Of a stretch of 64,000 nt of DNA, positions 448 to 44,271 are shown piece by piece. The position numbers and the translations under genes are program-made. Each line of letters starts with the position of its first letter. Within the stretch, counting starts at the first letter, position 1. Below the pieces are notes generated by a model that had not been told where the DNA came from, made no database searches, and worked only from the letters and a program-made list of their open reading frames with translations. The stretch is from a virus. The DNA is taken from IMG/VR virus record IMGVR_UViG_3300042890_001842, positions 1-64,000 of that record, one strand, 5' to 3'.

Positions 448-463
448 TGTGAGGTTTATCACA
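448..463. promoter_or_regulatory. CRP/GlxR-type site TGTGA-N6-TCACA
   Basis: tgtga ggttta tcaca, perfect consensus. Confidence 0.7.
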
Positions 464-500
464 AAATAAATCTGCGACACGCCGAAGGTGAATTAGTAAA

Positions 501-522
501 TGTCAGTAGGCCATGCTAAAAT
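501..522 (+). promoter_or_regulatory. early promoter TGTCAG-N10-TAAAAT (PafBC-type)
   Basis: One of nine copies with the same spacing. Confidence 0.8.
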
Positions 523-551
523 ACTCTTATTCCAACAACGAAAGGTATCAA

Positions 552-755
552 ATGAAAATCGAACACAACCTAAAGTTTGTAACAGAGTTTGCAGACAATC
601 ACCCAGTAACAGCACAAATGCTAAACATGCCTGAACCTATGCGTGTATTGCTATTAGAGTCAATGCTAAAAGAATTACTTGCACCACGCTTGCAACCTCT
701 ATTAGATGAAATCAATGCAGGTGGGTCATACGCAATTCTAAAGGTGGCTGAATAA
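552..755 (+). CDS. hypothetical protein (start MKIEHN)
   Basis: RBS ACGAAAGG before ATG at 552. Confidence 0.75.
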   Translation: MKIEHNLKFVTEFADNHPVTAQMLNMPEPMRVLLLESMLKELLAPRLQPLLDEINAGGSYAILKVAE

Positions 756-1030
756 TGGGATACACAACAGCATTAGCACTTGCAGATGACCTATCATTAG
801 AGGCAGGGTTAGCCTATCACTTACAGGCTAATCATTACCCACCCGTTCCCGTTGCTATGGTGCAACCTTGCATAGATGCTATTGATGCATACTATGATGA
901 GGACTATGGTCGTGAAGTATCTTTACCTGAAGGTATCTCATGGCGTGGGCAGGTAACTGCACCAGCACATGCAATAATTGATGCACACCACTTAGATGCT
1001 TGGCTAGTAAGCGAGGACTACGATGAGTAA
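755..1030 (+). CDS. hypothetical protein
   Basis: Coupled by TAATG overlap; HLxxNHYPPVP motif. Confidence 0.75.
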   Translation: MGYTTALALADDLSLEAGLAYHLQANHYPPVPVAMVQPCIDAIDAYYDEDYGREVSLPEGISWRGQVTAPAHAIIDAHHLDAWLVSEDYDE

Positions 1031-1163
1031 TCTTTATTCTATCTTATCTACTTGGTATCCTGAAGGAGACTTCAACGAAGCTGAATTGTGGGATGCTATC
1101 GCTGAAAACGAAGGCGTTGATGTAAATGAGATCATGGATGGCGATCTAACAGACTACCTGTGA
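1023..1163 (+). CDS. small acidic hypothetical protein (46 aa)
   Basis: Hand translation MSNLYSILSTWYPEGDFNEAELWDAIAENEGVDVNEIMDGDLTDYL; overlaps upstream stop. Confidence 0.6.
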   Translation: MSNLYSILSTWYPEGDFNEAELWDAIAENEGVDVNEIMDGDLTDYL

Positions 1164-1224
1164 TGTATCTCACACGACACTCCCCTCAGAAATGAGGGGA
1201 AATGTCAGTGGGCTATTGTATAAT
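1159..1224 (+). promoter_or_regulatory. CRP-type site, hairpin and TGTCAG-N10-TATAAT promoter
   Basis: tgtga tgtatc tcaca at 1159-1174; hairpin 1181-1200; tgtcag at 1203; tataat at 1219. Confidence 0.8.
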
Positions 1225-1254
1225 ACTACCAACAACAAAACGAAAGGAAACAAA

Positions 1255-1404
1255 ATGACAACACTAGAAATCGGACAGACATACACCACTTCAACAAGCG
1301 GTGTAACAGGAACAATCGTGGCGGTAGATAATCACCCAAGCGGTGTAAATCGTGTCTTGCTTGATGTCAATGGCAAAGAGCGTTGGACAAGCGTTCCAAA
1401 CTAA
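1255..1404 (+). CDS. hypothetical protein (start MTTLEIG)
   Basis: RBS CGAAAGGA upstream. Confidence 0.7.
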   Translation: MTTLEIGQTYTTSTSGVTGTIVAVDNHPSGVNRVLLDVNGKERWTSVPN

Positions 1405-1419
1405 TTCCTGATAAGGAAA

Positions 1420-1448
1420 AGTCCTGAGCATGACTACTAAAACTGCTC
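1420..1448 (+). ncRNA. putative H-type pseudoknot, copy 1
   Basis: agtc-ctgagcat-gact-actaaaac-tgctc. Confidence 0.55.
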
Positions 1449-1454
1449 ACAATT

Positions 1455-1476
1455 TGTCAGACCCCTATGCTATACT
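1455..1476 (+). promoter_or_regulatory. TGTCAG-N10-TATACT promoter
   Basis: Motif followed by an (AACC)4 leader and RBS. Confidence 0.8.
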
Positions 1477-1511
1477 AACCAACCAACCAACCAAACGAAA
1501 GAGGAAAATAA

Positions 1512-1937
1512 ATGGCTAGAAACGGAAAATCTATTAGCGTGAAAATCGCTACACCAAAGGTAATCAAGGCACTAGAAACACGCCTTGCTGAATTAGAAAA
1601 GAACTACGCTACACAGGGCGAGAACGAAGCAAAGTATCAGAAAGCCCGTGATAAGTGGCAAAAAGAAATTGGCAAGTGGGCTATGTCTAACTTCTCAAAG
1701 GCTGAGAACCTTCGTACAAACTATCGTAATTGGAACAAAACTCTCAATGTAGATTTTGACCTTACAGTAAATGAGAGCGACTTCCCTAAAGAACCTGAAA
1801 AGGATTTTGAGACAATTCACCAGCACACATACAATGAGCAGAAAGAGGAAATCACGAACGCAATTCGTATCCTCAAGATGACAGATGAGGAAACAGTAAA
1901 TACCTCAACCTATAACGCTATTGCTCGTTATCTGTAA
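1512..1937 (+). CDS. hypothetical coiled-coil protein
   Basis: 141-aa ORF with strong RBS. Confidence 0.8.
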   Translation: MARNGKSISVKIATPKVIKALETRLAELEKNYATQGENEAKYQKARDKWQKEIGKWAMSNFSKAENLRTNYRNWNKTLNVDFDLTVNESDFPKEPEKDFETIHQHTYNEQKEEITNAIRILKMTDEETVNTSTYNAIARYL

Positions 1938-1947
1938 ATAAATAGTG

Positions 1948-1984
1948 GGAGGGCTAGACACACTCTAGCCCTCCATGCTATAAT
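1948..1984 (+). promoter_or_regulatory. hairpin overlapping a TAGACA-18-TATAAT promoter
   Basis: Inverted repeat ggagggctag/ctagccctcc; extended -10 TGcTATAAT. Confidence 0.6.
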
Positions 1985-2011
1985 TCGTATCCCTACTAAC
2001 AAAGGAACAAA

Positions 2012-2269
2012 ATGAAAAATCGTTATCGTATCGAAATCTATGATGATGTAAAAGCAAATGATTTGACTATTTATTCTGAGTCAAATGTAGATAAAGAATA
2101 CTTAACTGAAATGGTATTCTCTAACTTAAGACAATTCTCTGGAAACATTCGTGCATACGTATATGACAATGTAAAGAAAAAGAAAACCACTGCACTGATT
2201 CTACCAATGGAATTGTTAGCTAAATATAGAAATTACAAACTTACTTCTGATGAAATACTAATGAATTAA
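2012..2269 (+). CDS. hypothetical protein
   Basis: ORF with RBS AAAGGA. Confidence 0.7.
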   Translation: MKNRYRIEIYDDVKANDLTIYSESNVDKEYLTEMVFSNLRQFSGNIRAYVYDNVKKKKTTALILPMELLAKYRNYKLTSDEILMN

Positions 2270-2328
2270 TAATTATGAGGCGGGATCCGTGCCCGCCTCA
2301 TATTATTTTGGCCCGCAAAGGTAAGGGG

Positions 2329-2358
2329 TTATCCACAGCTTTAAGAGAGTTATCCACA
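2329..2358. promoter_or_regulatory. two DnaA boxes (TTATCCACA)
   Basis: Perfect boxes at 2329-2337 and 2350-2358. Confidence 0.65.
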
Positions 2359-2370
2359 ATCCCCGAAATT

Positions 2371-2446
2371 TGTGAGATTGATCACACGAGACAATTCGGA
2401 CAAATGACTAACAAGACTAGTAAATGTCAGTCCCCTATGTTATACT
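2371..2446 (+). promoter_or_regulatory. CRP-type site and TGTCAG-N10-TATACT promoter
   Basis: tgtga gattga tcaca at 2371-2386; tgtcag at 2425; tatact at 2441. Confidence 0.8.
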
Positions 2447-2478
2447 CAATCCAACAACCAATCGAAAGGAAATAAATT

Positions 2479-3483
2479 ATGGCTCACAATCTAGAAGTCG
2501 AAAACGGCGAAGTTGCTTTTGCGCTACGTGGAAAACCAGCATGGCACAATTTAGCAAATCGCATCTTTACACAAGATGAAGAAGTAACTACACAAACAAT
2601 GCTTGAAGAGGCAAAGTTAGCAAATTGGAATGTTCGTCTATCTCCAATCGCTGAGCACATTCCAGAATCATGGAATGATGTTTCTACTGCATCTCTTGTA
2701 TTGCGTGACAATCCATTCAATGGCGGAACTGATGTTCTTGCAACTGTTGGAAAGCGTTATAAGCCTGTGCAGAATGAAGAATTGTTTGCATTCGCTGATG
2801 CAATTCATGATGCAAACGCTGACTGTCGCTGGGAATCTGCTGGTTCTCTAAAGCAGGGCAAAGTTGTATTTGGTACTGTTGATATTCCTCGCACAATGGT
2901 GCTTGACCCTAGCGGTGCTAATGATGAAACTAAGTTGTATCTAATTGTTTGGACATCTCATGACGGGTCTGTTGCTGTTCAGGCTGCTGTTACTCCTGTT
3001 CGTGTTGTATGCCAAAACACTTTGAATCTTGCAATGCGTAATGCAAAGCAATCTTTCAAGATTCGCCACACGCAATCTGTTGAAGGTCGCATTCAAGTTG
3101 CTCGTGAGACTCTTGGTCTTGCTCTTGGATACTTTGATGAATTTGAGAAGGAAGCGCAAGCACTCTACACTCAATCAATTACTGATTCAGAATTCTCAAA
3201 GTTGATTCAAACAATCTACCCAAAGCCTGAGAAGGATTCAAAGGGTGCTTTGAAGAAGTGGGAAAACAAAGTCGTTTTGCTTGATGACCTTTACCACAAT
3301 TCACCAACGAATGCTAATATCAAGGGAACAAAGTGGGGCGCATTCAACGCTCTAACTGAACGCCTAGATTATTATCGTTCAGGACGTGGCAATTCTGAAT
3401 CACTCATGGCTGGTGCATCAGGATTTGACCCTGTTCTAACTGCTGAGAAAAACAAAATCAAGAAATTGGTTTCTGCTTTCTAA
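2479..3483 (+). CDS. DUF932 family (phage/plasmid TIGR03299-like) protein
   Basis: Motifs AWH, YKPVQN, AGSL.G, SHDGS, TPVRVVCQNTL, IRHT, GT.WGAFNA. Confidence 0.9.
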   Translation: MAHNLEVENGEVAFALRGKPAWHNLANRIFTQDEEVTTQTMLEEAKLANWNVRLSPIAEHIPESWNDVSTASLVLRDNPFNGGTDVLATVGKRYKPVQNEELFAFADAIHDANADCRWESAGSLKQGKVVFGTVDIPRTMVLDPSGANDETKLYLIVWTSHDGSVAVQAAVTPVRVVCQNTLNLAMRNAKQSFKIRHTQSVEGRIQVARETLGLALGYFDEFEKEAQALYTQSITDSEFSKLIQTIYPKPEKDSKGALKKWENKVVLLDDLYHNSPTNANIKGTKWGAFNALTERLDYYRSGRGNSESLMAGASGFDPVLTAEKNKIKKLVSAF

Positions 3484-3489
3484 ATAAAA

Positions 3490-3517
3490 AAATCCTGAGC
3501 ATGATTTAAAACTGCTC
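3490..3517 (+). ncRNA. putative H-type pseudoknot, copy 2
   Basis: aaatc-ctgagcat-gattt-aaaac-tgctc. Confidence 0.55.
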
Positions 3518-3521
3518 TCTT

Positions 3522-3595
3522 GGTTCCATAGATTAATTGGTTAGATCGCCACCCTGTCACGGTGGAGGCTACGGGTTCAAGTCCCGTTGGAATCG
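3522..3595 (+). tRNA. tRNA-Asp (GTC)
   Basis: Acceptor ggttcca/tggaatc; anticodon arm ccacc-ctGTCac-ggtgg; T-loop ttcaagt. Confidence 0.9.
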
Positions 3596-3596
3596 C

Positions 3597-3728
3597 ATGG
3601 ATAAAAAAAATTACGCTCTCGCTGCATATAGAAAAGTTAAACGTGCAGAAAAATTAAAAAAGATCAAAGAGCTTGAAGAATATAATAATAAATGCGGGCC
3701 AGTAACAATAACTAAAATAAAAAAATAA
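3597..3728 (+). CDS. small basic hypothetical protein
   Basis: ATG directly after the tRNA; the track's earlier start overlaps the tRNA. Confidence 0.4.
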   Translation: MDKKNYALAAYRKVKRAEKLKKIKELEEYNNKCGPVTITKIKK

Positions 3729-3756
3729 ATACCCGCAGAGGTAAAAGCCAAAAAAT

Positions 3757-3821
3757 TGTGTTACGAGTCACAAATAAAATCCCTGAAACCCCTTGAAAAT
3801 GTCAGTGGCATCCGCTACAAT
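3757..3821 (+). promoter_or_regulatory. CRP-like site and TGTCAG-N10-TACAAT promoter (leaderless)
   Basis: tgtgt tacgag tcaca at 3757; tgtcag at 3800; tacaat at 3816; ATG at 3828. Confidence 0.75.
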
Positions 3822-3827
3822 ACTCAC

Positions 3828-4445
3828 ATGACCAACGAACTAATATCAAGTAAATATACATTTGTCTGCGATCCAGGTGAATGTGATTCTTTAATTGAAC
3901 TAACATCATCAGATGGTTTTGGATTTCCATCTGGTGTGACAAGGCTCACATGTCCTTGTGGAAGAGAAACCACATTATTGTCAGTGGAGCATGCTACAAT
4001 ACAACCAACAACAACGGAAGAGGTAAAAATGGAAACAACTACAGATAATCACTACATGACACGAGAGTTTCTTGAGTCAGAGTTAGTTAAAAATAAGGCA
4101 CGTATCGCACAATTAGAGGAGCAGGTCCAACGTGTAACCCAGCGTGATTACGCAACTGCAGGAACTCTAAATAAGTTACGTGATGACATGAAGGTATTTA
4201 CCTTGGAAGGTCTTGATGATGATTCTATTTCAGAATATCAGGCAGAAGAGATTGCAAGCATTTGCGGGTTCGAACTAACTAATGAGTTTGAGTTGACTGT
4301 AACAGTACAGTATTCAGTTACAGTTAATGCTCGTGACGAGGAATCTGCTATCAATGCAATTCATGAGACAGATTTCGATACTGTGTCATATGATGACCCA
4401 ATTACATATATGTCTTCATCTGTTGATTCAGTAGAGGTGGACTAA
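3828..4445 (+). CDS. hypothetical protein with N-terminal Cys-rich ribbon; nested second start at 4029
   Basis: CDPGEC...CPCG; internal RBS GGAAGAGG before METTT. Confidence 0.75.
   Translation: MTNELISSKYTFVCDPGECDSLIELTSSDGFGFPSGVTRLTCPCGRETTLLSVEHATIQPTTTEEVKMETTTDNHYMTREFLESELVKNKARIAQLEEQVQRVTQRDYATAGTLNKLRDDMKVFTLEGLDDDSISEYQAEEIASICGFELTNEFELTVTVQYSVTVNARDEESAINAIHETDFDTVSYDDPITYMSSSVDSVEVD
3935..4000 (+). promoter_or_regulatory. intragenic CRP-type site and TGTCAG-N10-TACAAT promoter
   Basis: tgtga caaggc tcaca at 3935-3950; tgtcag at 3979; tacaat at 3995. Confidence 0.75.
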
Positions 4446-4648
4446 TGTATTTTGAGTTAACCGCTCCAAACCAGTCAGCCCTTCACAGGGCTTACTGGGA
4501 TGCGGAGGTAATTGGATTGGACCCTAAGTTGATTGGTTCATTGACTTTCAATATTGGAACTGGTAGCATTGAGAAAGTAAGTCGCATTCGTGACAAGCAT
4601 AACTTAACTGAAAGCTATGTCTCAGACTATGAGCCAACAGGATATTAG
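4445..4648 (+). CDS. hypothetical protein
   Basis: Translationally coupled ORF. Confidence 0.7.
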   Translation: MYFELTAPNQSALHRAYWDAEVIGLDPKLIGSLTFNIGTGSIEKVSRIRDKHNLTESYVSDYEPTGY

Positions 4649-4657
4649 GAGGATAAA

Positions 4658-4813
4658 ATGGATTATCAAGATGGATTTGAAGACGGTGTAAAATTTGCTC
4701 GTGATGTTATTATTAATAACATTAGACTATGGGCAGAGACTTCAGATGATGGTCCCGCCTTCGATGAAATTGCAGACCGTATTGAATTTGGAAAGGTAGA
4801 CTATGACCTCTGA
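4658..4813 (+). CDS. small hypothetical protein (MDYQDGFEDG...)
   Basis: Hand translation; RBS AGGAGG. Confidence 0.65.
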   Translation: MDYQDGFEDGVKFARDVIINNIRLWAETSDDGPAFDEIADRIEFGKVDYDL

Positions 4814-5012
4814 AGATCTAACTAGATGGATTGGCTGTGATCAATGCGGTACAGCCCAAGCTTTATATTTAGTTAAACTAGTAGAAGGTGAGTTATTCTT
4901 TTGTGGCCACCACTACAACGCAAGCAAACGGGGCCTTGACAAGGTCGCATATGAAATAGTAGAATTGAACAAGAAAGAAGAAGTACCACAACTAACAGAA
5001 ATGGCGGAATAA
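4803..5012 (+). CDS. small Zn-binding protein of an actinobacterial type
   Basis: CDQCG.AQA...GELFFCGHH. Confidence 0.7.
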   Translation: MTSEDLTRWIGCDQCGTAQALYLVKLVEGELFFCGHHYNASKRGLDKVAYEIVELNKKEEVPQLTEMAE

Positions 5013-5014
5013 CA

Positions 5015-5419
5015 ATGGGAGATAGAGCAAACTTCGTATTCGTACAACCAAGCGGAGAAACAATTGTATTGTACTCACACTGGGGTGGACATCAAATGCT
5101 AGCAAATTTAGCAGAGGCAGTAGCCAAGGCACAACCACGCTGGTCTGACCCTTCATATGCAACACGCATTGCTATCAGTCAAATGATTGGTGATGGCTGG
5201 GCATTTGAAACAGGCTGGGGTTTAAATGTTAACTCAATTGGAGACAACGAGCACAAGATTCCAGTAATCGACTGGGGGCAGATGACGTTTAGTCTACACG
5301 AGGAAGACTCATTCCATAATCTTGATAACAAGGTTCGTGGCATGAAGAATGAAGCAATCTTTACTCAGGACCTGCGTTCGTTTGTAGAGAAATACTCTGA
5401 CGTTCCAATCCTAGTTTAA
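5015..5419 (+). CDS. hypothetical phage protein
   Basis: MGDRAN...LYSHWGG. Confidence 0.75.
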   Translation: MGDRANFVFVQPSGETIVLYSHWGGHQMLANLAEAVAKAQPRWSDPSYATRIAISQMIGDGWAFETGWGLNVNSIGDNEHKIPVIDWGQMTFSLHEEDSFHNLDNKVRGMKNEAIFTQDLRSFVEKYSDVPILV

Positions 5420-5522
5420 TTAATTAAAGGTGCCTCTATAGTCATCCAATGCGTTATGGCCAGGGGTTAAATAAAGCAGAGTTCTTTTACTTTCGTTGGT
5501 GATTCTCTAGCAGCCTTATGTA

Positions 5523-5556
5523 AAGCCCCAGCTCTGCCCCTGCAGCTGGGGTTTTT
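5523..5556 (+). terminator. intrinsic terminator
   Basis: Stem ccccagct/agctgggg followed by TTTTT. Confidence 0.7.
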
Positions 5557-5576
5557 ATATTGGCCCGCAAGAACTG

Positions 5577-5606
5577 AGGATAGCATAGACTATTTACGAG
5601 AGTCAA
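5577..5606 (-). promoter_or_regulatory. leftward sigma-A-like promoter TTGACT-18-TATCCT
   Basis: Reverse complement of aggata...agtcaa with TG extension. Confidence 0.45.
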
Positions 5607-5626
5607 TATATTTTCCTGAAATTTTG

Positions 5627-5710
5627 TGTGATCTTGACCACAAAGCTTGGAAAATGTGGTGTGGAACACACCAATAAAGTATTCCAAATGTCAGTGGGTC
5701 ATGTTACAAT
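5627..5710 (+). promoter_or_regulatory. two CRP-like sites and TGTCAG-N10-TACAAT promoter
   Basis: Sites at 5627-5642 and 5655-5670; tgtcag at 5689; tacaat at 5705. Confidence 0.75.
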
Positions 5711-5737: not shown

Positions 5738-6478
5738 ATGCCGAACTGGGTATATAATGGTTTGACTATCGAAGGCAAGCCTGAATCTGTAAAATCTCTT
5801 ATGGAGCAAATGAATAAGCCATTTGTTAAATTGCATGATACTTGGAATTCAACAACTCATCAAATGGAAGTAAAGCAAACTACTTATCCTAATCCTGTAT
5901 TTGCTTTTCATAATATCTATAATCATTTAGATGCTGGTATTACTGATGAGGAATACTTAAAACAACCTGACCATTCCCTCCCACTTGCAGAGGCTATGAA
6001 ATTTCAGGGCAACCATTGGTATGACTTCAATGTCCGTGAATGGGGCACAAAATGGGATGTTGGTGTTCATTCAGATGATAAGTATCCTGATACTACTGTA
6101 GAGGATGCTGTTAATGGTGAGAATCATGTAGTCCATTATAATTTTAATACCGCTTGGTCTCGTCCTATGCCAGCCTTAATTAAACTATCATCTCAATACC
6201 CTGACCTTCTATTTACTTTATCATATGAGGAAGAGACAGGCTGGGGCGGAGAGTTAGAAATTCTTCGTGGCGTAGTTATCTCAGAATCAGAATATGACAA
6301 TATGTGTCGTGACTGTGATGCAACTGACCAAATGGAATACTGCGAGAACGAATGCGGTGAAATCTGTGGCAACTGTAATTGGCTAGGAGAGGCTGACCTA
6401 GAGGCTGTCAAAGAATGTCAGACCCATAGTATATACTTAGAAACCAAAGTACCTGAATATAGAAAGGCGGAAGCATGA
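5738..6478 (+). CDS. DUF1281/YubB ferredoxin-like family protein with C-terminal Cys cluster
   Basis: MPNW.N.L.I.G, WY.....WGTKWD, F.TAWS.P. Confidence 0.8.
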   Translation: MPNWVYNGLTIEGKPESVKSLMEQMNKPFVKLHDTWNSTTHQMEVKQTTYPNPVFAFHNIYNHLDAGITDEEYLKQPDHSLPLAEAMKFQGNHWYDFNVREWGTKWDVGVHSDDKYPDTTVEDAVNGENHVVHYNFNTAWSRPMPALIKLSSQYPDLLFTLSYEEETGWGGELEILRGVVISESEYDNMCRDCDATDQMEYCENECGEICGNCNWLGEADLEAVKECQTHSIYLETKVPEYRKAEA

Positions 6479-6627
6479 GAACTATTGATGAATTAGTTAA
6501 TGAGATGTACATGGACAATGAGGCACATCTTGAATATATGGAGAACATGAACGGTGGGGATTGTGATTGTGGAATCCACACTACATTAAACACAATTGTT
6601 AAATACTGGTGGGATGAGGAGAAATAA
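6475..6627 (+). CDS. small hypothetical protein
   Basis: ATGA overlap; hand-translated 50 aa. Confidence 0.6.
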   Translation: MRTIDELVNEMYMDNEAHLEYMENMNGGDCDCGIHTTLNTIVKYWWDEEK

Positions 6628-6812
6628 TGCTAGGTTATGAAATGGCAGATGTAGATGAAATGATTAACTCAGTGCATGATGCTAAACTATTTTATCTTAG
6701 ATCTCCGTCAGATTTGGTTGACAAGCAACCATTAATTGACGGGTTAGAGAAGACAGTTAGTTTTCTCCAAGGACTATTAGAAGAAGGGCATTTTGATGGA
6801 TATCAAGACTGA
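6627..6812 (+). CDS. hypothetical protein
   Basis: Coupled ORF. Confidence 0.65.
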   Translation: MLGYEMADVDEMINSVHDAKLFYLRSPSDLVDKQPLIDGLEKTVSFLQGLLEEGHFDGYQD

Positions 6813-7008
6813 TTATCTAATTGAATATATGAAGATTCATTTAATTTCAATTGAGCAGGATTTAGAAAATATTGCTCAGGAAATGGAAGAATTAGACCCT
6901 GAATCTAAAGCTTGTAAAGAATTAGATTATGAGTATAACTACTTATCAGGACAGTCTATTGTAACCCGCCATTATTTGTCAGTGGCTAATGATAGAATGT
7001 CATCATGA
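6793..7008 (+). CDS. hypothetical protein
   Basis: ORF in operon. Confidence 0.65.
   Translation: MMDIKTDYLIEYMKIHLISIEQDLENIAQEMEELDPESKACKELDYEYNYLSGQSIVTRHYLSVANDRMSS
6977..6998 (+). promoter_or_regulatory. TGTCAG-N10-TAGAAT promoter (leaderless)
   Basis: ATG at 7005 follows the -10 after a 6-nt gap. Confidence 0.7.
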
Positions 7009-7277
7009 ATATATTAGAACTAGAACCACATCTGCAAAAGCAGGTAGACGCTGGGTCCTCTGGGACCGACATACTGCATGGGCACCTAAAGGTTCTCATG
7101 TTGGACGCAGAACGCCAATTAGAATTGGCACAATCGGCAGAAGATATATCTGGAGAAGCAATGGATTCCATGGAGCGGAAATACTGGGAAGGCGTCCTAG
7201 ACGCTTATGGAGATATATACGCAATGACATATGCATTAGCATTTGCTATAGATGACAGGAGTAAAAACAATGGCTGA
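7005..7277 (+). CDS. hypothetical protein
   Basis: ORF with phage-like composition. Confidence 0.7.
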   Translation: MNILELEPHLQKQVDAGSSGTDILHGHLKVLMLDAERQLELAQSAEDISGEAMDSMERKYWEGVLDAYGDIYAMTYALAFAIDDRSKNNG

Positions 7278-7623
7278 ATTAGATCTATTAGAAAAGACAC
7301 GTATGCAAGATGTACATAGAGATATTAATATAATCATTGATAAGATAACTAAACTTGGTGTCTTCCCTCCCCTGGTTTGGGTATGGTCATGGGATGTTGC
7401 TATGTCTATCTATACAGACATTCAGGAAGGTGGCGACCCTGACCTATGTGTATCTAAAGATGAAGATGAGATGTGGGAACTATTCTACACTCAGGCGGAC
7501 AAGAACGGGTTCACACTAGAGTACGGCGCAGAAGACCTATATGAGGCTGTCAGAGATTGGATGATTGACGAAGAGGTCGTAGAATACTATAATGAGGAGG
7601 AGGACGAAGATGAAGATGAGTGA
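7270..7623 (+). CDS. acidic hypothetical protein
   Basis: RBS AGGAG before MAELD. Confidence 0.7.
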   Translation: MAELDLLEKTRMQDVHRDINIIIDKITKLGVFPPLVWVWSWDVAMSIYTDIQEGGDPDLCVSKDEDEMWELFYTQADKNGFTLEYGAEDLYEAVRDWMIDEEVVEYYNEEEDEDEDE

Positions 7624-7753
7624 TGAATTTATCAATGATCAACTAAACAAAGCACAAAAGCTTTTGTGGGGTGGTAGCGAAACAGAGAACATCGAAGCAC
7701 ACAACATCATTGCTAAACTAATTAAAGACAGGATGCCTAATGACGAAGTTTAA
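7610..7753 (+). CDS. small hypothetical protein
   Basis: Hand translation; RBS GGAGG; fills the gap between neighbours. Confidence 0.55.
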   Translation: MKMSDEFINDQLNKAQKLLWGGSETENIEAHNIIAKLIKDRMPNDEV

Positions 7754-7976
7754 AGTATTTGGAGACATGCTCTTCACATTCTTCATGGATGTAGAAGCAG
7801 ATTCGCCTGATGAGGCATGGGACATTGCTAATAAGGCAGAGACTCATGAATGGACTCAGATTCTAGAAGACAAGACAGTTGAGGTCCACTTCGTTGAAGA
7901 AGTTGAAACTGAACTTGAAGACGGGTATCCGTCAATGAATAATGAAATAATCATAACTGAAGGACAAGATTCCTAA
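7740..7976 (+). CDS. acidic hypothetical protein
   Basis: VEA.S..EA motif. Confidence 0.65.
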   Translation: MTKFKVFGDMLFTFFMDVEADSPDEAWDIANKAETHEWTQILEDKTVEVHFVEEVETELEDGYPSMNNEIIITEGQDS

Positions 7977-8065
7977 AGGCGGTGGGCCTGCAGGAGGGGT
8001 ATTTACAAATTCCCTAAATTCGTATATAATATACATAACAACTCGATCTAGAAAGGATCAAACAA

Positions 8066-8212
8066 ATGGCAACAAAGCGTGAATATCTAGCAAGCAAGGG
8101 CATTACTGTAGGAAAGCGTGGACGTTTTTCATCAGCAGCAAAGCAAGCTCTTTCTGAGGCAGAAAAGCAAGGCGTGAAGTTTACTACAGAGGCACCTACC
8201 TCAAAGAAGTAA
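8066..8212 (+). CDS. Lsr2-like DNA-binding peptide (48 aa)
   Basis: MATKREYLASKGITVGKRGRFS resembles the Lsr2 C-terminal R.WA...G..V..RGR motif; own TTTACA-17-TATAAT promoter and RBS GAAAGGA. Confidence 0.7.
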   Translation: MATKREYLASKGITVGKRGRFSSAAKQALSEAEKQGVKFTTEAPTSKK

Positions 8213-8241
8213 TACAACTTAATAACGGAGGGCTGGCTAAA

Positions 8242-8263
8242 TGTCAGCCCTTCGTGATATAAT
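8242..8263 (+). promoter_or_regulatory. TGTCAG-N10-TATAAT promoter inside a hairpin
   Basis: Ninth copy of the motif. Confidence 0.75.
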
Positions 8264-8560: not shown

Positions 8561-9035
8561 GCTGCCCAAAAGCTGTGCGAATACGGGCAAGAATTCCTAT
8601 TTACGAGGACATATAAAAAATCCCTGAAATTTCTAGAACTTTCTGCCAAAATGTGCACAAAATAATGTAGAATTAATCTAATATAGATCTAAATGGATCA
8701 AAATTTGTCGTGAATTTCGCTAATTTAGAGGGGGCAAATTAGCGTATTTACGAGAGCTCTTGACAAATCCTGGAACATATGGTGGCATATAATGCTATTG
8801 ACAATATCGAATACATATGCATAGTTATCCACAAGTTTATCCACAACATTATGACATGCCTGTGGATAACGCTCAATTACTCAGTATATATCTAAATAAA
8901 TATACAGTAGTAATTACTCTAGAATTAATAGTAAATATTCTCCACAATACTCCACTTTACTCCACTATAAAAGCCTTGTAAGGCTCATAGAAGGCAGATA
9001 TATGGGAGGGGGATGTAGGGATATGGGAGGGGGAA
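8561..9035. other. candidate replication origin at the strand switch
   Basis: DnaA boxes at 8825, 8837 and 8861 (inverted); near-box at 8938; AT-rich tract; no ORF in track. Confidence 0.55.
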
Positions 9036-19321: not shown

Positions 19322-19622
19322 TAGGCTTTCCCTCCAGTTCGCATCTTACTCCGTAGGACTCAATAATCTTCTTTACCATTTCGACATACTCTATAACCTT
19401 CATTTTTGCTGTTCCGTCGTATTGTCTAAAATTATCTTCATACAGTCTAATTGCTATAAATTCTGGATACTGAACAATATTCATCTTGAAATCGTTTACT
19501 GGCTTCTTAAGCTCTCTAATCTTGTTAGCCATCTCTTTATTATAAAATACTGGCTTGTTGGGTTCACCAGTCCATTGATTTATTCCATACTTAAAATGGT
19601 CTTTGTTTTTATCAATAAACAC
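19305..19622 (-). CDS. hypothetical protein
   Basis: ORF in operon. Confidence 0.65.
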   Translation of the reverse strand: MFIDKNKDHFKYGINQWTGEPNKPVFYNKEMANKIRELKKPVNDFKMNIVQYPEFIAIRLYEDNFRQYDGTAKMKVIEYVEMVKKIIESYGVRCELEGKPSDRIS

Positions 19623-19950
19623 CTTTACCCCTTAATCTTTTCCAAACTTCCGTCTCTTTATGTAAATTCTTTGTCTTGTCTATGGAACCAGAAGTTAGAT
19701 AAACTCCACCCCAAACACCATATTCAGAATTATTTACACCAGACTCATAACATATTTTAATGACTGGGCAAGATAGACATGCCTCGTCAATGCTTTTTGA
19801 TATAGTTGAATCTGTTTCATATTTATCATAAAATAAATTAGTATTCATTCCACGACATACGGCCAGATTAAACCAATCAAAATCATCTTTATCTATACCA
19901 AGATCATTTAAAATATTTGACATATTTTTTAGGAAGCTCCCATACTCCAA
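19612..19950 (-). CDS. whiB: WhiB family Fe-S transcription factor
   Basis: W...A.C.G...LF...C.SCPV...C...GVWGG; likely start MSNIL. Confidence 0.9.
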   Translation of the reverse strand: MEYGSFLKNMSNILNDLGIDKDDFDWFNLAVCRGMNTNLFYDKYETDSTISKSIDEACLSCPVIKICYESGVNNSEYGVWGGVYLTSGSIDKTKNLHKETEVWKRLRGKGVY

Positions 19951-24751: not shown

Positions 24752-25798
24752 CTATTTAGAACCTATTTCGCTAATCTTAGCTTTAGAAAACTTAAGCATT
24801 TTTGCACCTAGCGGAGAGTATCCTAAGTCTGCTGCTTTTTTGCCACAAGTATTTGCCATATAATCAAAAAACTTTTTTACAGATTCGTTATGTAAAGATT
24901 TTTCTTTGGACGCTATGCCATATGTAAATGTAGATATGGGATAAGCAAGCTTGTTAACAGTCTTATAGTTTACTTTAACTATACCCTTTTCGTCCATTGA
25001 AAAATCGCTTAAGAATACTGATGCTGCAGAAACTGTAGGCTGCATGTACCTTCCAGATTCATTTTGTATTGATGCCATTTTAAGGCCTCTTGCATATGAT
25101 ATTTCGTTATATCCAATAGAACCATTTGTTTGCGTCAAAACCATAGCCACTCCGTAGGATCCAGAAGCACTCATCATAAATGGATTACTACTTATTGATC
25201 CAGGAAATGATGAAGAGAAGTTTTTGTTGCCAGCCTTTGCCCATATACTTGGGGCAACGACATTTAAATAAGATGTAAATACTTCTGATGTTCCAGATCC
25301 ATCTACCCTGTAAGCAACTCTTATTGGGGTAGAAGGTATTTTAGGTTCTTTACCACCAATTAAATTTTCTTTTAAAATTTGAGGGTCATTCCATTTTGTT
25401 ATTTTTCCAGAAAATATTTTGGCCAATGTATCTGTACTCATCTTTATAGTTACTTTATATCCGTCTAGTCTATAAATTATTCCTATTGGACCAGCAACCA
25501 AAGGAACGTAAACAAATTCTTTTGTTGGTCTAACTTCTGATCCAGAGTACGGGACATCTGACATTGCAAAATTTGCTATACCATTTGAAAACATATTTTT
25601 TCCAGCTCCAGAACCATTTGGAGAATATGTTACAGAATCTCCACCAGACTTTACAAACTCAACTCTACATCTATCTATAAAGTTGGCAGCAAAAGTAGAT
25701 CCAGATCCAGTAATAGGTTCTGCGTTTGATGTGTTAATTAAAAAAACATTAGACAATAAGACTAATGTTGCTGTGACTACAATCAGTTTTAGTTTCAT
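24752..25798 (-). CDS. pstS: phosphate ABC transporter substrate-binding protein
   Basis: GSGSTF, GSGAG, FAMSD, IFSGKITKWNDP, R.DGSGTS, YPI. Confidence 0.95.
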   Translation of the reverse strand: MKLKLIVVTATLVLLSNVFLINTSNAEPITGSGSTFAANFIDRCRVEFVKSGGDSVTYSPNGSGAGKNMFSNGIANFAMSDVPYSGSEVRPTKEFVYVPLVAGPIGIIYRLDGYKVTIKMSTDTLAKIFSGKITKWNDPQILKENLIGGKEPKIPSTPIRVAYRVDGSGTSEVFTSYLNVVAPSIWAKAGNKNFSSSFPGSISSNPFMMSASGSYGVAMVLTQTNGSIGYNEISYARGLKMASIQNESGRYMQPTVSAASVFLSDFSMDEKGIVKVNYKTVNKLAYPISTFTYGIASKEKSLHNESVKKFFDYMANTCGKKAADLGYSPLGAKMLKFSKAKISEIGSK

Positions 25799-29482: not shown

Positions 29483-29493
29483 TTTGCTCCTTG

Positions 29494-29567
29494 TGCAATA
29501 GGTAGGACTCGAACCTACGACGACCAAATTATGAGTTTGGGGCTCTAACCGACTGAGCTACTATTGC
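29494..29567 (-). tRNA. tRNA with CAT anticodon (elongator Met or Ile2)
   Basis: Acceptor gcaatag/ctattgc; ccaaa-ctCATaa-tttgg; T-loop ttcgagt. Confidence 0.9.
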
Positions 29568-34724: not shown

Positions 34725-34861
34725 TTAATAATACCAACCTCTTTTAGGCATCTATATATAGTCATAACTGAAACACGGCATTCAGTTGCTATCTCTTCCA
34801 TTGTTTTTCTTTGAACAACATATCTACGATAAAGCCAGTCCTTATTCTTATACAGCTTCAT
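34721..34861 (-). CDS. small HTH protein
   Basis: Hand translation MKLYKNKDWLYRRYVVQRKTMEEIATECRVSVMTIYRCLKEVGIIK. Confidence 0.7.
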   Translation of the reverse strand: MKLYKNKDWLYRRYVVQRKTMEEIATECRVSVMTIYRCLKEVGIIK

Positions 34862-37274: not shown

Positions 37275-37474
37275 TTTACCTGTACAGAATTATCATGACC
37301 ATTATCACATTTCCAAGTTAATAATAGTCTGTCGGGATCCCACCACCCACCATCCACATCAAGCTCACATTTGCCACAAGGACGAATGCCGTTGAGCTTT
37401 TCCAATGTGGAATGTACTTGCTCAACTACTTCTTCTTTTTTTAAAAACTCATTCAGATCTGGCACGTATCTCAC
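37271..37474 (-). CDS. Zn-binding hypothetical protein
   Basis: CGKC...C..GH. Confidence 0.6.
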   Translation of the reverse strand: MRYVPDLNEFLKKEEVVEQVHSTLEKLNGIRPCGKCELDVDGGWWDPDRLLLTWKCDNGHDNSVQVN

Positions 37475-38456
37475 CTATCAATTTACCAACTACTTCTTTG
37501 TTAGAACGAAGATAATCTACAGCTTTAGCTCTACCTTGAAATCTTTCTTCACCAATAGTATACCAAGCTCCGCCCTTTTGAACAATTCCCATCATCTCTG
37601 CAACATCAAGTGTTTCTCCAACAGTATCTACACCAAGAGCTTCCCCTTGGTAATAAAAGTCGTACTGTCCTGATAGATTTGGGGGGCCAAGCTTGTTGTA
37701 ATCAATAATCCAGTTAACTGGCCTTCCAACCCTTTGTTCAATAATCTTGTCGCCAACTTTAATACCAGCCTTGATAGCATTAGCCTCAGCTTCAGACGAC
37801 CAAAGTTTAATGACTGTAGAAGAAAAGAACTTGACTGCCATGCCACCTGTTGGTATGTGACTAGCATGCATAGATCCAAATTGATTTCGTTGTTGTGAGA
37901 TGAGTACAAGTAATGTGTTTTTGTTTGCATAGTTTAACATCTTGACTGCGTGGGTCATATCCTTTGCTTCAGCGCCGATCTGCTTGGTATCTTGCAGATC
38001 CTTCATTTCATTTCCATCTTTTTCAAAATATATTCCTGGCAAAAGAGCTGAGATGGAATCTACTACAATAAGGTCTACTCCAGCTTCCATTAGCTTTACG
38101 CCAACGTCAACCATATCGTTTACTGTTTTTGCAGAAGAGTATATTAGCGCCTCTGAATCTACGCCAAGTTCTTCTGCCCACTTCTGATCGTATGATGCTT
38201 CTGCATCAATCCAAGCACATGTCTTTCCTTCTTGTTGTGCCAAAGCAATCATCTGTAGACAGAAAGATGACTTTCCAGCAGACTTATTGCCCCAAACAAG
38301 CACTTGTCTTCCATAACCAAGACCACCCTTTAATGCCATATTTAAGCCAATGCTTGGTGTTGCTTGCTTATCAACTTTTACATCTTGTGCTGATTGAACT
38401 CTTGCTCTTGTTTTAGGATCTAATTTAGCTAATATATCGTCTAATGCTATTGTCAT
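37449..38456 (-). CDS. recA: RecA recombinase
   Basis: GNKSAGKS, WIDAE, VVDSI.AL, GG.A.KF.S, GAWY. Confidence 0.95.
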   Translation of the reverse strand: MTIALDDILAKLDPKTRARVQSAQDVKVDKQATPSIGLNMALKGGLGYGRQVLVWGNKSAGKSSFCLQMIALAQQEGKTCAWIDAEASYDQKWAEELGVDSEALIYSSAKTVNDMVDVGVKLMEAGVDLIVVDSISALLPGIYFEKDGNEMKDLQDTKQIGAEAKDMTHAVKMLNYANKNTLLVLISQQRNQFGSMHASHIPTGGMAVKFFSSTVIKLWSSEAEANAIKAGIKVGDKIIEQRVGRPVNWIIDYNKLGPPNLSGQYDFYYQGEALGVDTVGETLDVAEMMGIVQKGGAWYTIGEERFQGRAKAVDYLRSNKEVVGKLIGEIRARSE

Positions 38457-38488
38457 TTTACTCTTTCTTCTCTATAGTATTATATCAT

Positions 38489-38836
38489 TTAGAATAGGTT
38501 GCCGTGAAGGGCTGGGCGTAACTTATTTTTTTCTATTTTGTTATTTAAAATTTCATCTAAACTATGAGTAACTGTTTCTTCATTTCTCATTGCTGCATAT
38601 ACATCTAGAAGCCTGATAATAACATCTGCCATTTCTTCTACAACTTCTTGAGACCCTTTGTTTTTACGGATAGCTTCCAAAACCTCAGTAACTTCCGAAT
38701 GTACGAGAGCCAATTTATTACCAATCTTGTCATGTGTATATTCGCCATGCCAAAATCCTTTTTCAATAGCAGTCTCATGTAGTACTGCAGATAATGCGTC
38801 TAAACCGTATTCAGTAACAATTTGATTACTATTCAT
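38489..38836 (-). CDS. MazG-like NTP pyrophosphohydrolase
   Basis: HSEVTE.LEA.RK...EEMADVIIR.LD. Confidence 0.85.
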   Translation of the reverse strand: MNSNQIVTEYGLDALSAVLHETAIEKGFWHGEYTHDKIGNKLALVHSEVTEVLEAIRKNKGSQEVVEEMADVIIRLLDVYAAMRNEETVTHSLDEILNNKIEKNKLRPALHGNLF

Positions 38837-39017
38837 CTTTATTCCTTAAGCTAAACTTAAACGTCAAATTTTGATCGTCATAGTCAACAACTAACTCTTT
38901 ATCTTCATTTTTTGCATTTATAAATTTATCTGTTTTAACTTCAAGTGTTCCATATTCTTCAAGCAATGCAACCAATATCTTATTTAAAGATAAAGATTGG
39001 ATAATTTCTTCTGTCAT
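38829..39017 (-). CDS. hypothetical protein
   Basis: Coupled ORF. Confidence 0.6.
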   Translation of the reverse strand: MTEEIIQSLSLNKILVALLEEYGTLEVKTDKFINAKNEDKELVVDYDDQNLTFKFSLRNKDE

Positions 39018-42283: not shown

Positions 42284-42296
42284 AACCGCCTTTGAA

Positions 42297-42318
42297 ATGG
42301 GGGCCCGTAGGCCCCCAT
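42297..42318. terminator. hairpin between SSB and dnaE
   Basis: atgggggcc-cgta-ggcccccat. Confidence 0.65.
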
Positions 42319-42322
42319 CATA

Positions 42323-42994: not shown

Positions 42995-43045
42995 ATTATC
43001 TCCTTATATATTTGACGGTATAAATCCGTCTGTTCTTTTATTATA

Positions 43046-44044: not shown

Positions 44045-44271
44045 GACTTCTTCTTTCCTACATATACACCATGGATAGTCATTATGAATTTCCATGTCTC
44101 GCCTGTGAATTCTACCGAAAAGGCTGGGTCTATGTCAAGTACTCTGACATATCCCTTCCCTCTCATATCTTGAACTAGCAAATTCTCATACTGTGGTCTT
44201 AAACTAATTAACTGTGCATTGTCATAAAACTTTACATCAATTTGGAATCTTTTAATTTTTCGATGAGTCAC
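43972..44271 (-). CDS. hypothetical protein
   Basis: ORF between helicase and primase. Confidence 0.65.
   Translation of the reverse strand: MTHRKIKRFQIDVKFYDNAQLISLRPQYENLLVQDMRGKGYVRVLDIDPAFSVEFTGETWKFIMTIHGVYVGKKKSWQTEGISQNKLIPRSIPLDKSRQ

What the first reader, a model, noticed from the sequence alone, without database searches (positions are those of the whole stretch)
448..5670. Helically phased CRP/GlxR palindromes upstream of the same promoters
Seen: perfect TGTGA-N6-TCACA at 448, 1159, 2371 and 3935, and near-perfect copies at 3757, 5627 and 5655. Distances from site centre to the start of the -10 are 61.5, 52.5, 62.5, 52.5, 51.5, 70.5 and 42.5 nt, roughly 10-bp steps. Established: this is the CRP consensus, shared by actinobacterial Crp/GlxR. 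Inference: early transcription integrates host cAMP or carbon state with the damage-type element, a two-input gate that could act as a lysis-versus-dormancy sensor in oligotrophic hosts.
Basis: partly seen in the sequence, partly recalled or inferred. Interest (0 to 1): 0.8.

Follow-up and report, generated by a model that had tools for sequence, protein, structure and literature searches.

The report
Phased CRP-type boxes on phage promoters
An uncultured 109-kb lake phage of actinobacteria places a 16-base palindrome, identical to the binding site of cAMP-receptor-type (Crp/GlxR) regulators, whole turns of the DNA helix upstream of about half of its early promoters, so a host global regulator probably helps switch these genes on, although no binding has been tested.

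Summary
The window has 4 perfect TGTGA-N6-TCACA sites where 0.13 are expected. The 108.7-kb unique genome has 8 perfect and 6 one-mismatch sites, and 13 of these 14 lie in one 9.2-kb block of small + strand genes (p about 1e-13).

In 80 related IMG/VR loci chosen by gene homology, 60% of 800 distinct promoter contexts carry a site with at most one mismatch. Distances fall at about 42, 52, 62 and 72 nt (Rayleigh R 0.96 at 10 bp). The arms are nearly invariant while flanks drift, and mismatches avoid the G2/G4 positions that CRP contacts.

No CRP-like or other clear helix-turn-helix (HTH) regulator was found in the phage. A candidate host order of streamlined freshwater actinobacteria has one Crp whose recognition helix is identical to that of M. 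tuberculosis CRP.

Best reading: host Crp acts as a class-I-like activator on PafBC-type promoters. The cAMP and "lysis-versus-dormancy" parts are unsupported. No class III adenylate cyclase was found in 31 candidate-host genomes, and no tyrosine integrase was found in the phage.

This scan has already found the same feature in at least 12 related genomes.

The parts
448..463 (.). Perfect CRP-type palindrome TGTGAGGTTTATCACA. Its centre is 61.5 nt before the -10 of the promoter at 501. It lies in the terminal repeat, so a second copy sits at 109190.
501..522 (+). PafBC-type promoter TGTCAG-N10-TAAAAT, followed by an A/C-rich leader, the RBS GAAAGG and the gene 552-755.
1159..1174 (.). Perfect palindrome TGTGATGTATCTCACA, 52.5 nt before the -10. 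It overlaps the stop codon of ORF 1023-1163.
1203..1224 (+). Promoter TGTCAGTGGGCTATTGTATAAT, ahead of gene 1255-1404.
2371..2386 (.). Perfect palindrome TGTGAGATTGATCACA, 62.5 nt before the -10. In 59 distinct orthologous sequences the left arm is invariant and the right arm nearly so.
2425..2446 (+). Promoter TGTCAGTCCCCTATGTTATACT, ahead of the DUF932 gene 2479-3483.
3757..3772 (.). One-mismatch palindrome TGTGTTACGAGTCACA (A5 changed to T), 51.5 nt before the -10.
3800..3821 (+). Promoter TGTCAGTGGCATCCGCTACAAT, ahead of ORF 3828-4445.
3935..3950 (.). Perfect palindrome TGTGACAAGGCTCACA inside ORF 3828-4445, 52.5 nt before the -10 of an internal promoter. In 5 of 12 distinct orthologues the right arm is TAACA.
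3979..4000 (+). Internal promoter TGTCAGTGGAGCATGCTACAAT inside the same ORF. A leader, an RBS and an in-frame ATG at 4029 follow.
5627..5642 (.). One-mismatch palindrome TGTGATCTTGACCACA, 70.5 nt before the -10. It is the distal member of a tandem pair.
5655..5670 (.). Two-mismatch palindrome TGTGGTGTGGAACACA, 42.5 nt before the -10. It is the proximal member of the tandem pair. The pair type (42.5, 69.5/70.5) recurs in relatives.
5689..5710 (+). Promoter TGTCAGTGGGTCATGTTACAAT, ahead of gene 5738-6478 (DUF1281_C/Api92-like by Pfam tally).
1455..1476 (+). Same promoter type with no CRP-type box upstream; there is only a TCACA half-site next to the TGTCAG.
6416..8263 (+). Three more promoters of the same type (6416, 6977, 8242), none with a box of at most one mismatch at activating distance.

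Best explanation
The 16-bp palindromes are binding sites for a dimeric CRP-family regulator. The most likely binder is the host's single Crp/GlxR-type protein. Bound 42, 52, 62, 72 or about 83 nt upstream of the -10 hexamer, it would sit at about -54, -64, -74, -84 or -95 if transcription starts 7 nt after the hexamer. That puts it on one face of the helix relative to RNA polymerase. It would then help recruit the polymerase, in the manner of class I CRP activation, to promoters that have no -35 hexamer but carry the PafBC-type -26 element TGTCRG. The phage would thereby tie about half of the promoters of its first-expressed small-gene block to a host global regulator.

Shown: the sites, their restriction to this block, their phasing, their conservation, and the pattern of tolerated mismatches. 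Inferred: which protein binds, that it activates, and what signal it carries.
For: 1. Consensus and enrichment. There are 4 perfect sites in the window against 0.13 expected. The unique genome has 8 perfect and 6 one-mismatch sites, 13 of the 14 within 9.2 kb (p 1.4e-13). TGTGA is the only 5-N6-5 inverted repeat that recurs in the block, 8 times against 1 for every other.

2. Coupling to promoters. In 80 loci of relatives picked by gene homology, 480 of 800 distinct promoter contexts have a site with at most one mismatch, against 2 of 800 after shuffling.

3. Phasing. Thirty spacer-unrelated module clusters have modal distances of 41.5-42.5, 51.5-52.5, 61.5-62.5 and 71.5-72.5 nt (Rayleigh R 0.96 at 10 bp, p about 1e-12). 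Of 661 single sites, 567 are in phase.

4. Selection on the arms. In an alignment anchored on the downstream gene, mean identity is 0.993 for the arms, 0.836 for N6 and 0.767 for the flanks.

5. Contact pattern. One-mismatch sites change T1 (47 times) or A5 (112), and rarely G2 (8), T3 (1) or G4 (9). In CAP, R180 and R185 read G2 and G4, and E181 reads the partner of G4 (PMC10187061).

6. Same motif in distant relatives. Twelve loci with under 10% blastn coverage to this genome keep the same motif and the same distances. A host factor would give this; a co-evolving phage repressor and operator pair would not be expected to.

7. No phage candidate. The six-frame search found no HTH_Crp_2, cNMP-binding or HTH_3 domain. 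None of 34 early ORFs matched a recognisable transcription-factor family.

8. A plausible host protein. The phage is an actinophage. In a candidate host order, 30 of 31 genomes have one Crp of about 230 aa. It matches M. tuberculosis CRP and GlxR at E about 1e-80 and has the identical stretch ASRETVNKALADFA. In M. tuberculosis, ChIP enrichment is highest at zero-mismatch sites (PMC4117774).
Against: - No binding or expression data exist, and the host is not identified.
- The candidate order's genome regions sampled have 45-50% G+C against 37% for the phage. The only DNA link is a tRNA-Met at up to 95% identity.
- In five such genomes there is no perfect site, and one-mismatch sites are no commoner than the control. 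The conserved ones lie inside the EF-Tu and rpoA coding sequences. A host regulon built on this consensus is therefore not visible there.
- The predicted positions are shifted by about 3 bp from the E. coli class I series.
- A class at 57.5 nt (51 distinct contexts) is half a turn out of phase.
- The coding-embedded site at 3935 loses a critical C in 5 of 12 orthologues.
- About 40% of promoters of the same type have no box.
Confidence: 0.55

Rival explanations
1. A phage-encoded dimeric regulator binds the palindrome. It could be one of the many small early proteins of unknown function, or a protein delivered with the DNA. The match to the CRP consensus would then be convergence or mimicry.
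For: The early block encodes about 34 small ORFs, most without any family match. Candidate host genomes show no enrichment of the motif. Phages commonly autoregulate early promoters through repeated operators.
Against: No CRP-type, HTH_3 or other clear HTH domain was found; the only hits are sub-threshold, at 46249-46341(-) and 34751-34840(-), outside the early block. The sites lie 42-84 nt upstream of the -10, not over the core promoter. The motif is identical in distantly related contigs. The mismatch pattern equals the CRP contact pattern. A factor needed at the very first promoters would have to enter with the DNA.
Confidence: 0.2
2. Host Crp binds, but the effect is negative or indirect. 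The sites could repress or pause read-through from upstream promoters. Or they could act as a high-affinity sink that titrates the host's Crp away from its own regulon as phage DNA replicates.
For: GlxR and M. tuberculosis CRP both activate and repress (PMC10187061, PMC4117774). Candidate host genomes have no perfect site, so 8-11 perfect sites per phage genome would outcompete host sites. Several modules carry TTGACA-type hexamers upstream of the box. An out-of-phase class at 57.5 nt exists.
Against: Strict whole-turn phasing to the downstream -10 in 30 independent spacer classes is not needed for titration or roadblock. The boxes do not overlap the core promoter they are phased to.
Confidence: 0.15
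3. A different host protein, not of the CRP family, recognises TGTGA-N6-TCACA or a larger composite. The composite could include the neighbouring CCTGAAAWTT, GGCGTGTCG or DnaA-box-like words.
For: The intergenic modules are mosaics of several repeated words. The left flank of many boxes is asymmetric.
Against: The flank words are present only in a subset of modules (information content 0.1-0.3 bit), whereas the two arms are symmetric and nearly invariant. In the candidate host order the Crp orthologue is the only small cNMP-domain regulator.
Confidence: 0.07
4. There is no function of its own. The palindrome is carried along in duplicated promoter cassettes, or it is an RNA hairpin.
For: The cassettes share leaders and promoter words, so some copies are paralogues. 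The sequence can form a 5-6 bp hairpin.
Against: Spacers between box and promoter are unrelated among 30 clusters, yet the phase is kept. The arms stay fixed while flanks and N6 drift, and there are no compensatory changes. The hairpins are weak, at -3.9 to -5.8 kcal/mol, and lie upstream of the promoter they accompany.
Confidence: 0.03

Closest known systems
Class I CRP (CAP)-dependent promoters of E. coli (lac type; sites centred at -61.5, -71.5, -82.5, -92.5)
   Same: The 16-bp consensus TGTGA-N6-TCACA is the same. A single dimer site lies upstream of the core promoter at distances that differ by whole helical turns. The GTG/CAC core is the most constrained part (PMC10187061).
   Different: The core promoter has no -35 hexamer but a TGTCRG element at -28 to -23. 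The predicted centres (-54.5, -64.5, -74.5, -84.5, -95.5) are about 3 bp off the E. coli series, and the transcription start site (TSS) is not mapped. The host is an actinobacterium. Activation is untested.
Actinobacterial Crp/GlxR regulons (M. tuberculosis Rv3676, C. glutamicum GlxR)
   Same: The motif is the same. The candidate host Crp has the identical recognition helix. In M. tuberculosis, zero-mismatch sites are the strongest ChIP peaks, and upstream sites occur at -62.5, -69.5 and -95.5 (PMC4117774).
   Different: Here the sites are on a virus, at far higher density and perfection than in candidate host genomes. They are coupled to PafBC-type promoters. No class III cyclase was found in the candidate host order.
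NtcA-box promoters of T4-like cyanophages
   Same: A phage carries many binding sites for a host CRP-family global regulator (1-16 per genome) and is thought to exploit the host's nutrient-stress signalling (PMC3037559).
   Different: The regulator and motif differ (NtcA, GTA-N8-TAC, class II position). The cyanophage sites are spread over the genome rather than confined to one early block. No whole-turn phasing series and no pairing with a second host-regulator element have been described there.
PafBC-dependent (RecA-NDp) promoters of Actinobacteria
   Same: The partner promoters match tGTCgg(N10)tA(N3)T exactly in spacing (PMC8635444). The candidate host order has tandem WYL genes like pafBC.
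   Different: Known PafBC promoters are host DNA-damage genes. I know of none described with phased Crp boxes. The phage uses TGTCAG more often than TGTCGG.

Membership tests
CRP/GlxR-type binding site | 16-bp inverted repeat TGTGA-N6-TCACA | tested here: met
   4 perfect sites in the window and 8 in the unique genome.
CRP/GlxR-type binding site | G2 and G4 of each half-site are the base-specific contacts and so the least tolerant positions | tested here: met
   One-mismatch sites in relatives change T1 47 times, G2 8, T3 1, G4 9 and A5 112. The contacts are as described in PMC10187061.
CRP/GlxR-type binding site | A CRP-family protein with a matching recognition helix is present in the cell | tested here: inconclusive
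   None is encoded in the phage. It is present in 30 of 31 genomes of a candidate host order, with a helix identical to that of M. tuberculosis CRP. The host itself is not established.
CRP/GlxR-type binding site | Specific binding by the protein, enhanced by cAMP | not testable with these tools
   This needs EMSA or footprinting. Note that no class III adenylate cyclase domain was found in 31 candidate-host genomes.
Class I CRP-dependent promoter | The site lies upstream of the core promoter on one helix face, at distances differing by whole turns | tested here: met
   Distance classes are about 42, 52, 62, 72 and 83 nt. Rayleigh R is 0.96 at 10 bp over 30 clusters, and 567 of 661 single sites are in phase.
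Class I CRP-dependent promoter | Centres at -61.5, -71.5, -82.5 and -92.5 relative to a mapped start site | tested here: inconclusive
   The predicted centres are -54.5, -64.5, -74.5, -84.5 and -95.5 if the start is 7 nt after the -10. No TSS data exist. The offset from the E. coli series is about 3 bp.
Class I CRP-dependent promoter | Canonical -35/-10 core promoter, with activation through the RNA polymerase alpha C-terminal domain | tested here: not met
   The core is TGTCRG-N10-TAnnnT with no consistent -35 hexamer. The contact with the alpha subunit cannot be tested here.
PafBC-dependent promoter (partner element) | Consensus tGTCgg(N10)tA(N3)T with invariant spacing | tested here: met
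   10 matches in the window and 18 in the genome, all on +, against 0.86 expected. The consensus is from PMC8635444.
PafBC-dependent promoter (partner element) | Dependence on PafBC and ssDNA | not testable with these tools
   Tandem WYL genes are present in 31 of 31 candidate-host genomes.
Phage repressor operator (lambda-like or stoperator-like) | A phage-encoded sequence-specific repressor, with operators overlapping the core promoters | tested here: not met
   No HTH_3 or Crp-type HTH was found and no transcription-factor family among the early ORFs. The sites lie 42-84 nt upstream of the -10.

The most novel reading that the evidence does not exclude
The first genes of this abundant lake-phage family may be driven by composite promoters that need two host regulators at once. 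PafBC (the ssDNA and DNA-damage alarm) would act at the -26 element, and Crp would act whole turns upstream. That would make a true AND gate on host state. If the host belongs to the streamlined order that seems to lack a class III adenylate cyclase, Crp there would answer to a signal other than host-made cAMP, or would act without ligand, and the phage would be exploiting that.
Probability: 0.2. Interest if true: 0.8.

Novelty: new variant of a known kind. Interest (0 to 1): 0.55.

Why it matters
If host Crp really acts here, an abundant group of lake phages (over 300 IMG/VR contigs) starts infection through a host global regulator. In that case phage success would depend on host physiology in some of the most numerous freshwater bacteria.

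The perfect, phased sites also give a ready-made test bed for two questions. One is how actinobacterial Crp activates transcription. The other is whether it can cooperate with sigma-adaptation (PafBC-type) promoters, a combination I did not find in four searches of the paper library on related terms.

The missing cyclase in the candidate host order raises the question of what Crp senses there.

Tried and rejected
- Phage-encoded CRP or another HTH regulator. Six-frame searches for HTH_Crp_2, cNMP_binding and HTH_3 found nothing. HTH_17 and Sigma70_r4 gave only sub-threshold hits outside the early block. Pfam and PHROG scans of 34 early ORFs gave DUF932, GP88, DUF7455, DUF1281_C and an Lsr2-like protein, but no transcription factor.\n- RNA hairpin reading. 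The stems are weak, there is no covariation, and the element lies upstream of its promoter.\n- Same architecture in cultured relatives. The terminal 16 kb of Streptomyces phage EGole has no box and only one promoter match.\n- Host identification through the PstS-like gene. The best genome hits are only 37% identical.\n- Host identification through DNA matches. Only the tRNA-Met matched.\n- A Crp regulon in candidate host genomes. There are no perfect sites and no enrichment at one mismatch. The conserved near-sites are inside the EF-Tu and rpoA coding sequences.\n- Synonymous-site test on the coding-embedded box at 3935. My first version was circular, because the sequences had been selected by the motif. 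The unbiased version shows that the right arm varies, TCACA or TAACA.\n- Fetching the G2 actinophage KU886271. It is not in the collection.\n- A strict host search for TTGTCRGTG-N8-TAnnnT. It was too narrow to be informative.\n- Literature. Searches for Crp/GlxR sites on actinophage promoters found no precedent.

Full report
**1. Observation**

The pattern TGTGA-N6-TCACA occurs perfectly at 448, 1159, 2371 and 3935, and nowhere else in the 64-kb window. The expected count is 0.13, and none of 100 dinucleotide-preserving shuffles reached 4. One-mismatch copies lie at 3757 and 5627, and a two-mismatch copy at 5655. At two mismatches the window as a whole is not enriched (26 found, 38.7 expected), so only the sites with at most one mismatch carry weight on their own.

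All are on the + strand between 501 and 8263, against 0.86 expected. I recomputed every distance from palindrome centre to the first base of the -10 hexamer. They are exactly as stated: 61.5, 52.5, 62.5, 51.5, 52.5, 70.5 and 42.5.

**2. Genome context**

The window is the first 64 kb of a 112,011-bp IMG/VR virus record. Its ends are an exact 3,269-bp direct repeat, so the unique genome is 108,742 bp. The + strand block of small genes continues across the record's ends.

The unique genome holds 8 perfect palindromes: the four above plus 105233, 105827, 106662 and 108013. It holds 6 with one mismatch. Thirteen of these 14 lie within 9.2 kb (105208 through the end to 5642), which gives a binomial p of 1.4e-13. 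The one outlier, at 46813, is probably chance.

The same block holds all but one of the 18 TGTCAG-type promoter matches. It also holds two TGTCGG variants, at 105581 and 105871, each 52.5 nt from a palindrome. TGTGA is the only 5-N6-5 inverted repeat that recurs in this block, 8 times against 1 for every other.

The phage is an actinophage:
- It encodes a WhiB above the Pfam cut-off. That WhiB is about 50% identical to those of 125-135-kb Streptomyces phages.
- It encodes an Lsr2-like small protein.
- It encodes a DUF932 gene shared with the terminal repeats of Streptomyces phages.

No tyrosine integrase was found. G+C is about 37%.

**3. Anatomy of the modules**

Each promoter is followed by an A/C-rich leader, the ribosome-binding site GAAAGG and a short gene. 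The palindrome is one word in a mosaic of repeated words. The other words are:
- GGCGTGTCG, with 8 copies, all in the block;
- TTGACA;
- a GCCCGCA...GGGG hairpin-like element;
- DnaA-box-like TTATCCACA;
- CCTGAAAWTT.

These other words accompany only some boxes. In a logo of 389 distinct sites the flanks carry 0.1-0.3 bit, while the ten arm positions carry 1.3-2.0 bit. Several boxes overlap the last codons of the upstream gene, and the box at 3935 lies inside ORF 3828-4445. About half of the promoters in this genome have no box: 1455, 6416, 6977, 8242, 106033, 107138 and 108414.

**4. Relatives**

The DUF932 protein finds 310 IMG/VR stretches. The best 80 are at least 91% identical in protein sequence. 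Because these loci were chosen by a gene and not by the motif, they give an unbiased sample.
- They hold 455 perfect palindromes in 929 kb, and the promoter motif occurs on one strand only.
- Of 800 distinct promoter contexts, 480 have a site with at most one mismatch upstream. After shuffling the figure is 2 of 800.
- I grouped the 305 distinct box-to-promoter modules by shared 8-mers in the spacer, which is a rough de-replication. This gave 30 clusters with modal distances of 41.5-42.5, 51.5-52.5, 61.5-62.5 and 71.5-72.5. Rayleigh R is 0.96 at a 10-bp period (p about 1e-12), and 0.18 at a 7-bp period.
- With the loci from the pattern scan added, 567 of 661 single sites are in phase. The main exception is a class at 57.5 nt, with 51 contexts. 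Tandem pairs recur at (42.5, 69.5) and (58.5, 83.5).
- In this genome alone the 13 distances give R 0.76 and p 6e-4.

**5. Selection on the box itself**

I aligned the region upstream of the DUF932 gene, anchored on the gene start. Among 59 distinct sequences, TGTGA is invariant. TCACA is changed in four sequences only (three TCACG, one CCACA). Mean identity is 0.993 for the arms, 0.836 for N6 and 0.767 for 60 flanking columns.

Among one-mismatch sites in the family, the change falls on T1 (47 times) or A5 (112). It falls rarely on G2 (8), T3 (1) or G4 (9). This is the pattern expected for CRP. In CAP, R180 and R185 read G2 and G4, and E181 reads the partner of G4 (PMC10187061).

There are no compensatory arm changes, and the RNA hairpins are weak at -3.9 to -5.8 kcal/mol. 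The constraint is therefore on the sequence and not on a fold.

One counter-example should be noted. At the coding-embedded site 3935, 5 of 12 distinct orthologues have TAACA in the right arm through a synonymous change.

**6. Wider distribution**

I scanned IMG/VR for the composite pattern: box, an 18-48 nt gap, then promoter. Of the 80 loci fetched, 12 have under 10% blastn coverage to this genome and little tblastx similarity. They nevertheless show the same G+C (34-38%), clusters of 2-5 perfect boxes, and the same 52.5 and 62.5 distances. Some form divergent promoter pairs, each promoter with its own box.

A motif that stays fixed across diverged phages fits a host factor better than a phage repressor and operator pair, which tends to co-diverge. 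The terminal 16 kb of the cultured relative Streptomyces phage EGole has none of this.

**7. Who binds**

The phage shows no HTH_Crp_2, cNMP-binding or HTH_3 domain in six frames. It shows only sub-threshold HTH_17 and Sigma70_r4 hits, on the other strand and far from the block. None of the 34 early ORFs matched a transcription-factor family.

The host is unknown. The phage's PstS-like gene found freshwater Actinomycetota MAGs at only 37% identity. One of these MAGs gave me access to its order, which consists of streamlined genomes of 1.2-1.5 Mb.

In that order:
- 30 of 31 genomes have a single small cNMP-domain protein.
- One such protein (L170:1387-2091) matches M. tuberculosis CRP (3i54, 3mzh) at E 1.5e-80 and GlxR (3r6s, 4cyd) at about 5e-78. 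It has the identical recognition stretch ASRETVNKALADFA.
- All 31 genomes have tandem WYL genes like pafBC.

So both presumed factors exist in a plausible host lineage. Against this link:
- The regions of those genomes that I sampled have 45-50% G+C.
- The only DNA match to 20 kb of phage sequence is the tRNA-Met, at up to 95% identity.
- Five such genomes have no perfect box, and one-mismatch sites are no commoner than the reversed-pattern control.
- The near-sites that are conserved lie inside the EF-Tu and rpoA coding sequences.

**8. The cAMP and 'sensor' part**

No class III adenylate cyclase domain (PF00211) was found in any of the 31 genomes searched, while the control search found it in C. 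glutamicum. If the host belongs to this order, the signal read by Crp is unclear. It might be ligand-free binding, as is partly the case for M. tuberculosis CRP, or another cyclase class, which I did not search for.

The phage shows no tyrosine integrase and no HTH_3-type repressor, so a lysis-lysogeny decision has no support. The AND-gate idea with the PafBC-type element remains conjecture. The promoter does match the published consensus tGTCgg(N10)tA(N3)T exactly, with the -26 element at -28 to -23 (PMC8635444).

**9. Mechanism proposed**

Host Crp binds the boxes at about -54, -64, -74, -84 or -95. These positions are inferred, assuming a start 7 nt after the -10. From there Crp assists polymerase recruitment to promoters that lack a -35 element, in the manner of class I activation.

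Three observations fit direct, geometry-dependent contact: the whole-turn series, the position upstream of the core promoter, and the perfection of the sites. In M. tuberculosis the zero-mismatch sites are the strongest ChIP peaks (PMC4117774).

Three observations keep the sign of the effect and the partner open: the offset of about 3 bp from the E. coli series, the 57.5-nt class, and the box-less promoters.

I put host Crp as activator at 0.55, a phage factor at 0.2, host Crp with a negative or decoy role at 0.15, another host protein at 0.07, and no function at 0.03.

**10. Comparison and novelty**

The element works like a class I CRP site and looks like an actinobacterial Crp/GlxR site. 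It is not a member of the canonical class I promoter type, because the core promoter is of the PafBC kind.

The nearest phage precedent is the set of NtcA boxes in T4-like cyanophages, where a host CRP-family regulator is thought to be exploited (PMC3037559). My searches of the paper library found no report of Crp/GlxR boxes on actinophage promoters, or of Crp boxes phased to PafBC-type promoters. I therefore class it as a new variant of a known kind.

The same feature has already been recorded by this scan in another window of this genome and in at least 12 related genomes, with follow-up verdicts like mine. I re-tested the claims here rather than relying on those notes.

Noticed in passing
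window 8825-8869: Three perfect DnaA boxes (TTATCCACA at 8825 and 8837 on +, 8861 on -) lie within 45 bp, at the point where gene orientation and GC skew switch. Further pairs lie at 2329/2350 and at 107948/107969 in the genome. There are 6 perfect boxes against about 0.8 expected. This could be a replication origin or a DnaA-dependent control site.
   Followed up: partly
window 359, 475; genome 105853, 106003, 106698, 106789, 107899, 107996: The 9-mer GGCGTGTCG occurs 8 times, in both orientations, and only in the early block. It is often part of ACGGCGTGTCG-N-CTTGACA. It may be a second regulator's site.
   Followed up: no
window 3828-4445: One ORF contains a complete internal cassette in frame: box 3935, promoter 3979, leader, RBS and ATG 4029. 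The gene could therefore give a long product with a Cys-rich N-terminal part and a short one. In some relatives the N-terminal part is absent.
   Followed up: partly
window 8066-8212: A 48-aa ORF with a KRGR motif probably accounts for the match to PHROG 6269 (Lsr2-like DNA-bridging protein, E 1.8e-9). The tally does not name the matching ORF.
   Followed up: partly
window 19612-19950 (-): WhiB-family protein (Pfam 41 bits), about 50% identical to the WhiB of 125-135-kb Streptomyces phages.
   Followed up: partly
window 24752-25798 (-): PstS-like phosphate-binding protein (PBP_like_2, E 1.5e-41). It is an auxiliary gene, only 37% identical at most to any genome hit.
   Followed up: partly
window 29493-29567 (-) and 3522-3596 (+): tRNA-Met and tRNA-Asp genes. 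The tRNA-Met is up to 95% identical over 61 nt to the tRNA-Met of streamlined freshwater actinobacterial genomes. This is a weak pointer to the host.
   Followed up: partly
window 37449-45502 (-): The phage carries its own replication and recombination set: RecA (37449-38456), Pol III alpha (39014-42283), DnaG-like primase (43046-44095) and DnaB-like helicase (44252-45502).
   Followed up: no
candidate host order (G005-G034): No class III adenylate cyclase domain was found in 31 streamlined actinobacterial genomes, although nearly all keep one Crp with the cAMP-pocket R-T motif that aligns with that of M. tuberculosis CRP. What this Crp senses is an open question.
   Followed up: partly
window 1428-1450 and 3494-3516: The element TCCTGAGCATGA...AAACTGCTC is repeated after two genes. 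It has a short GAGCA/TGCTC stem and may be a terminator-like or RNA element.
   Followed up: no
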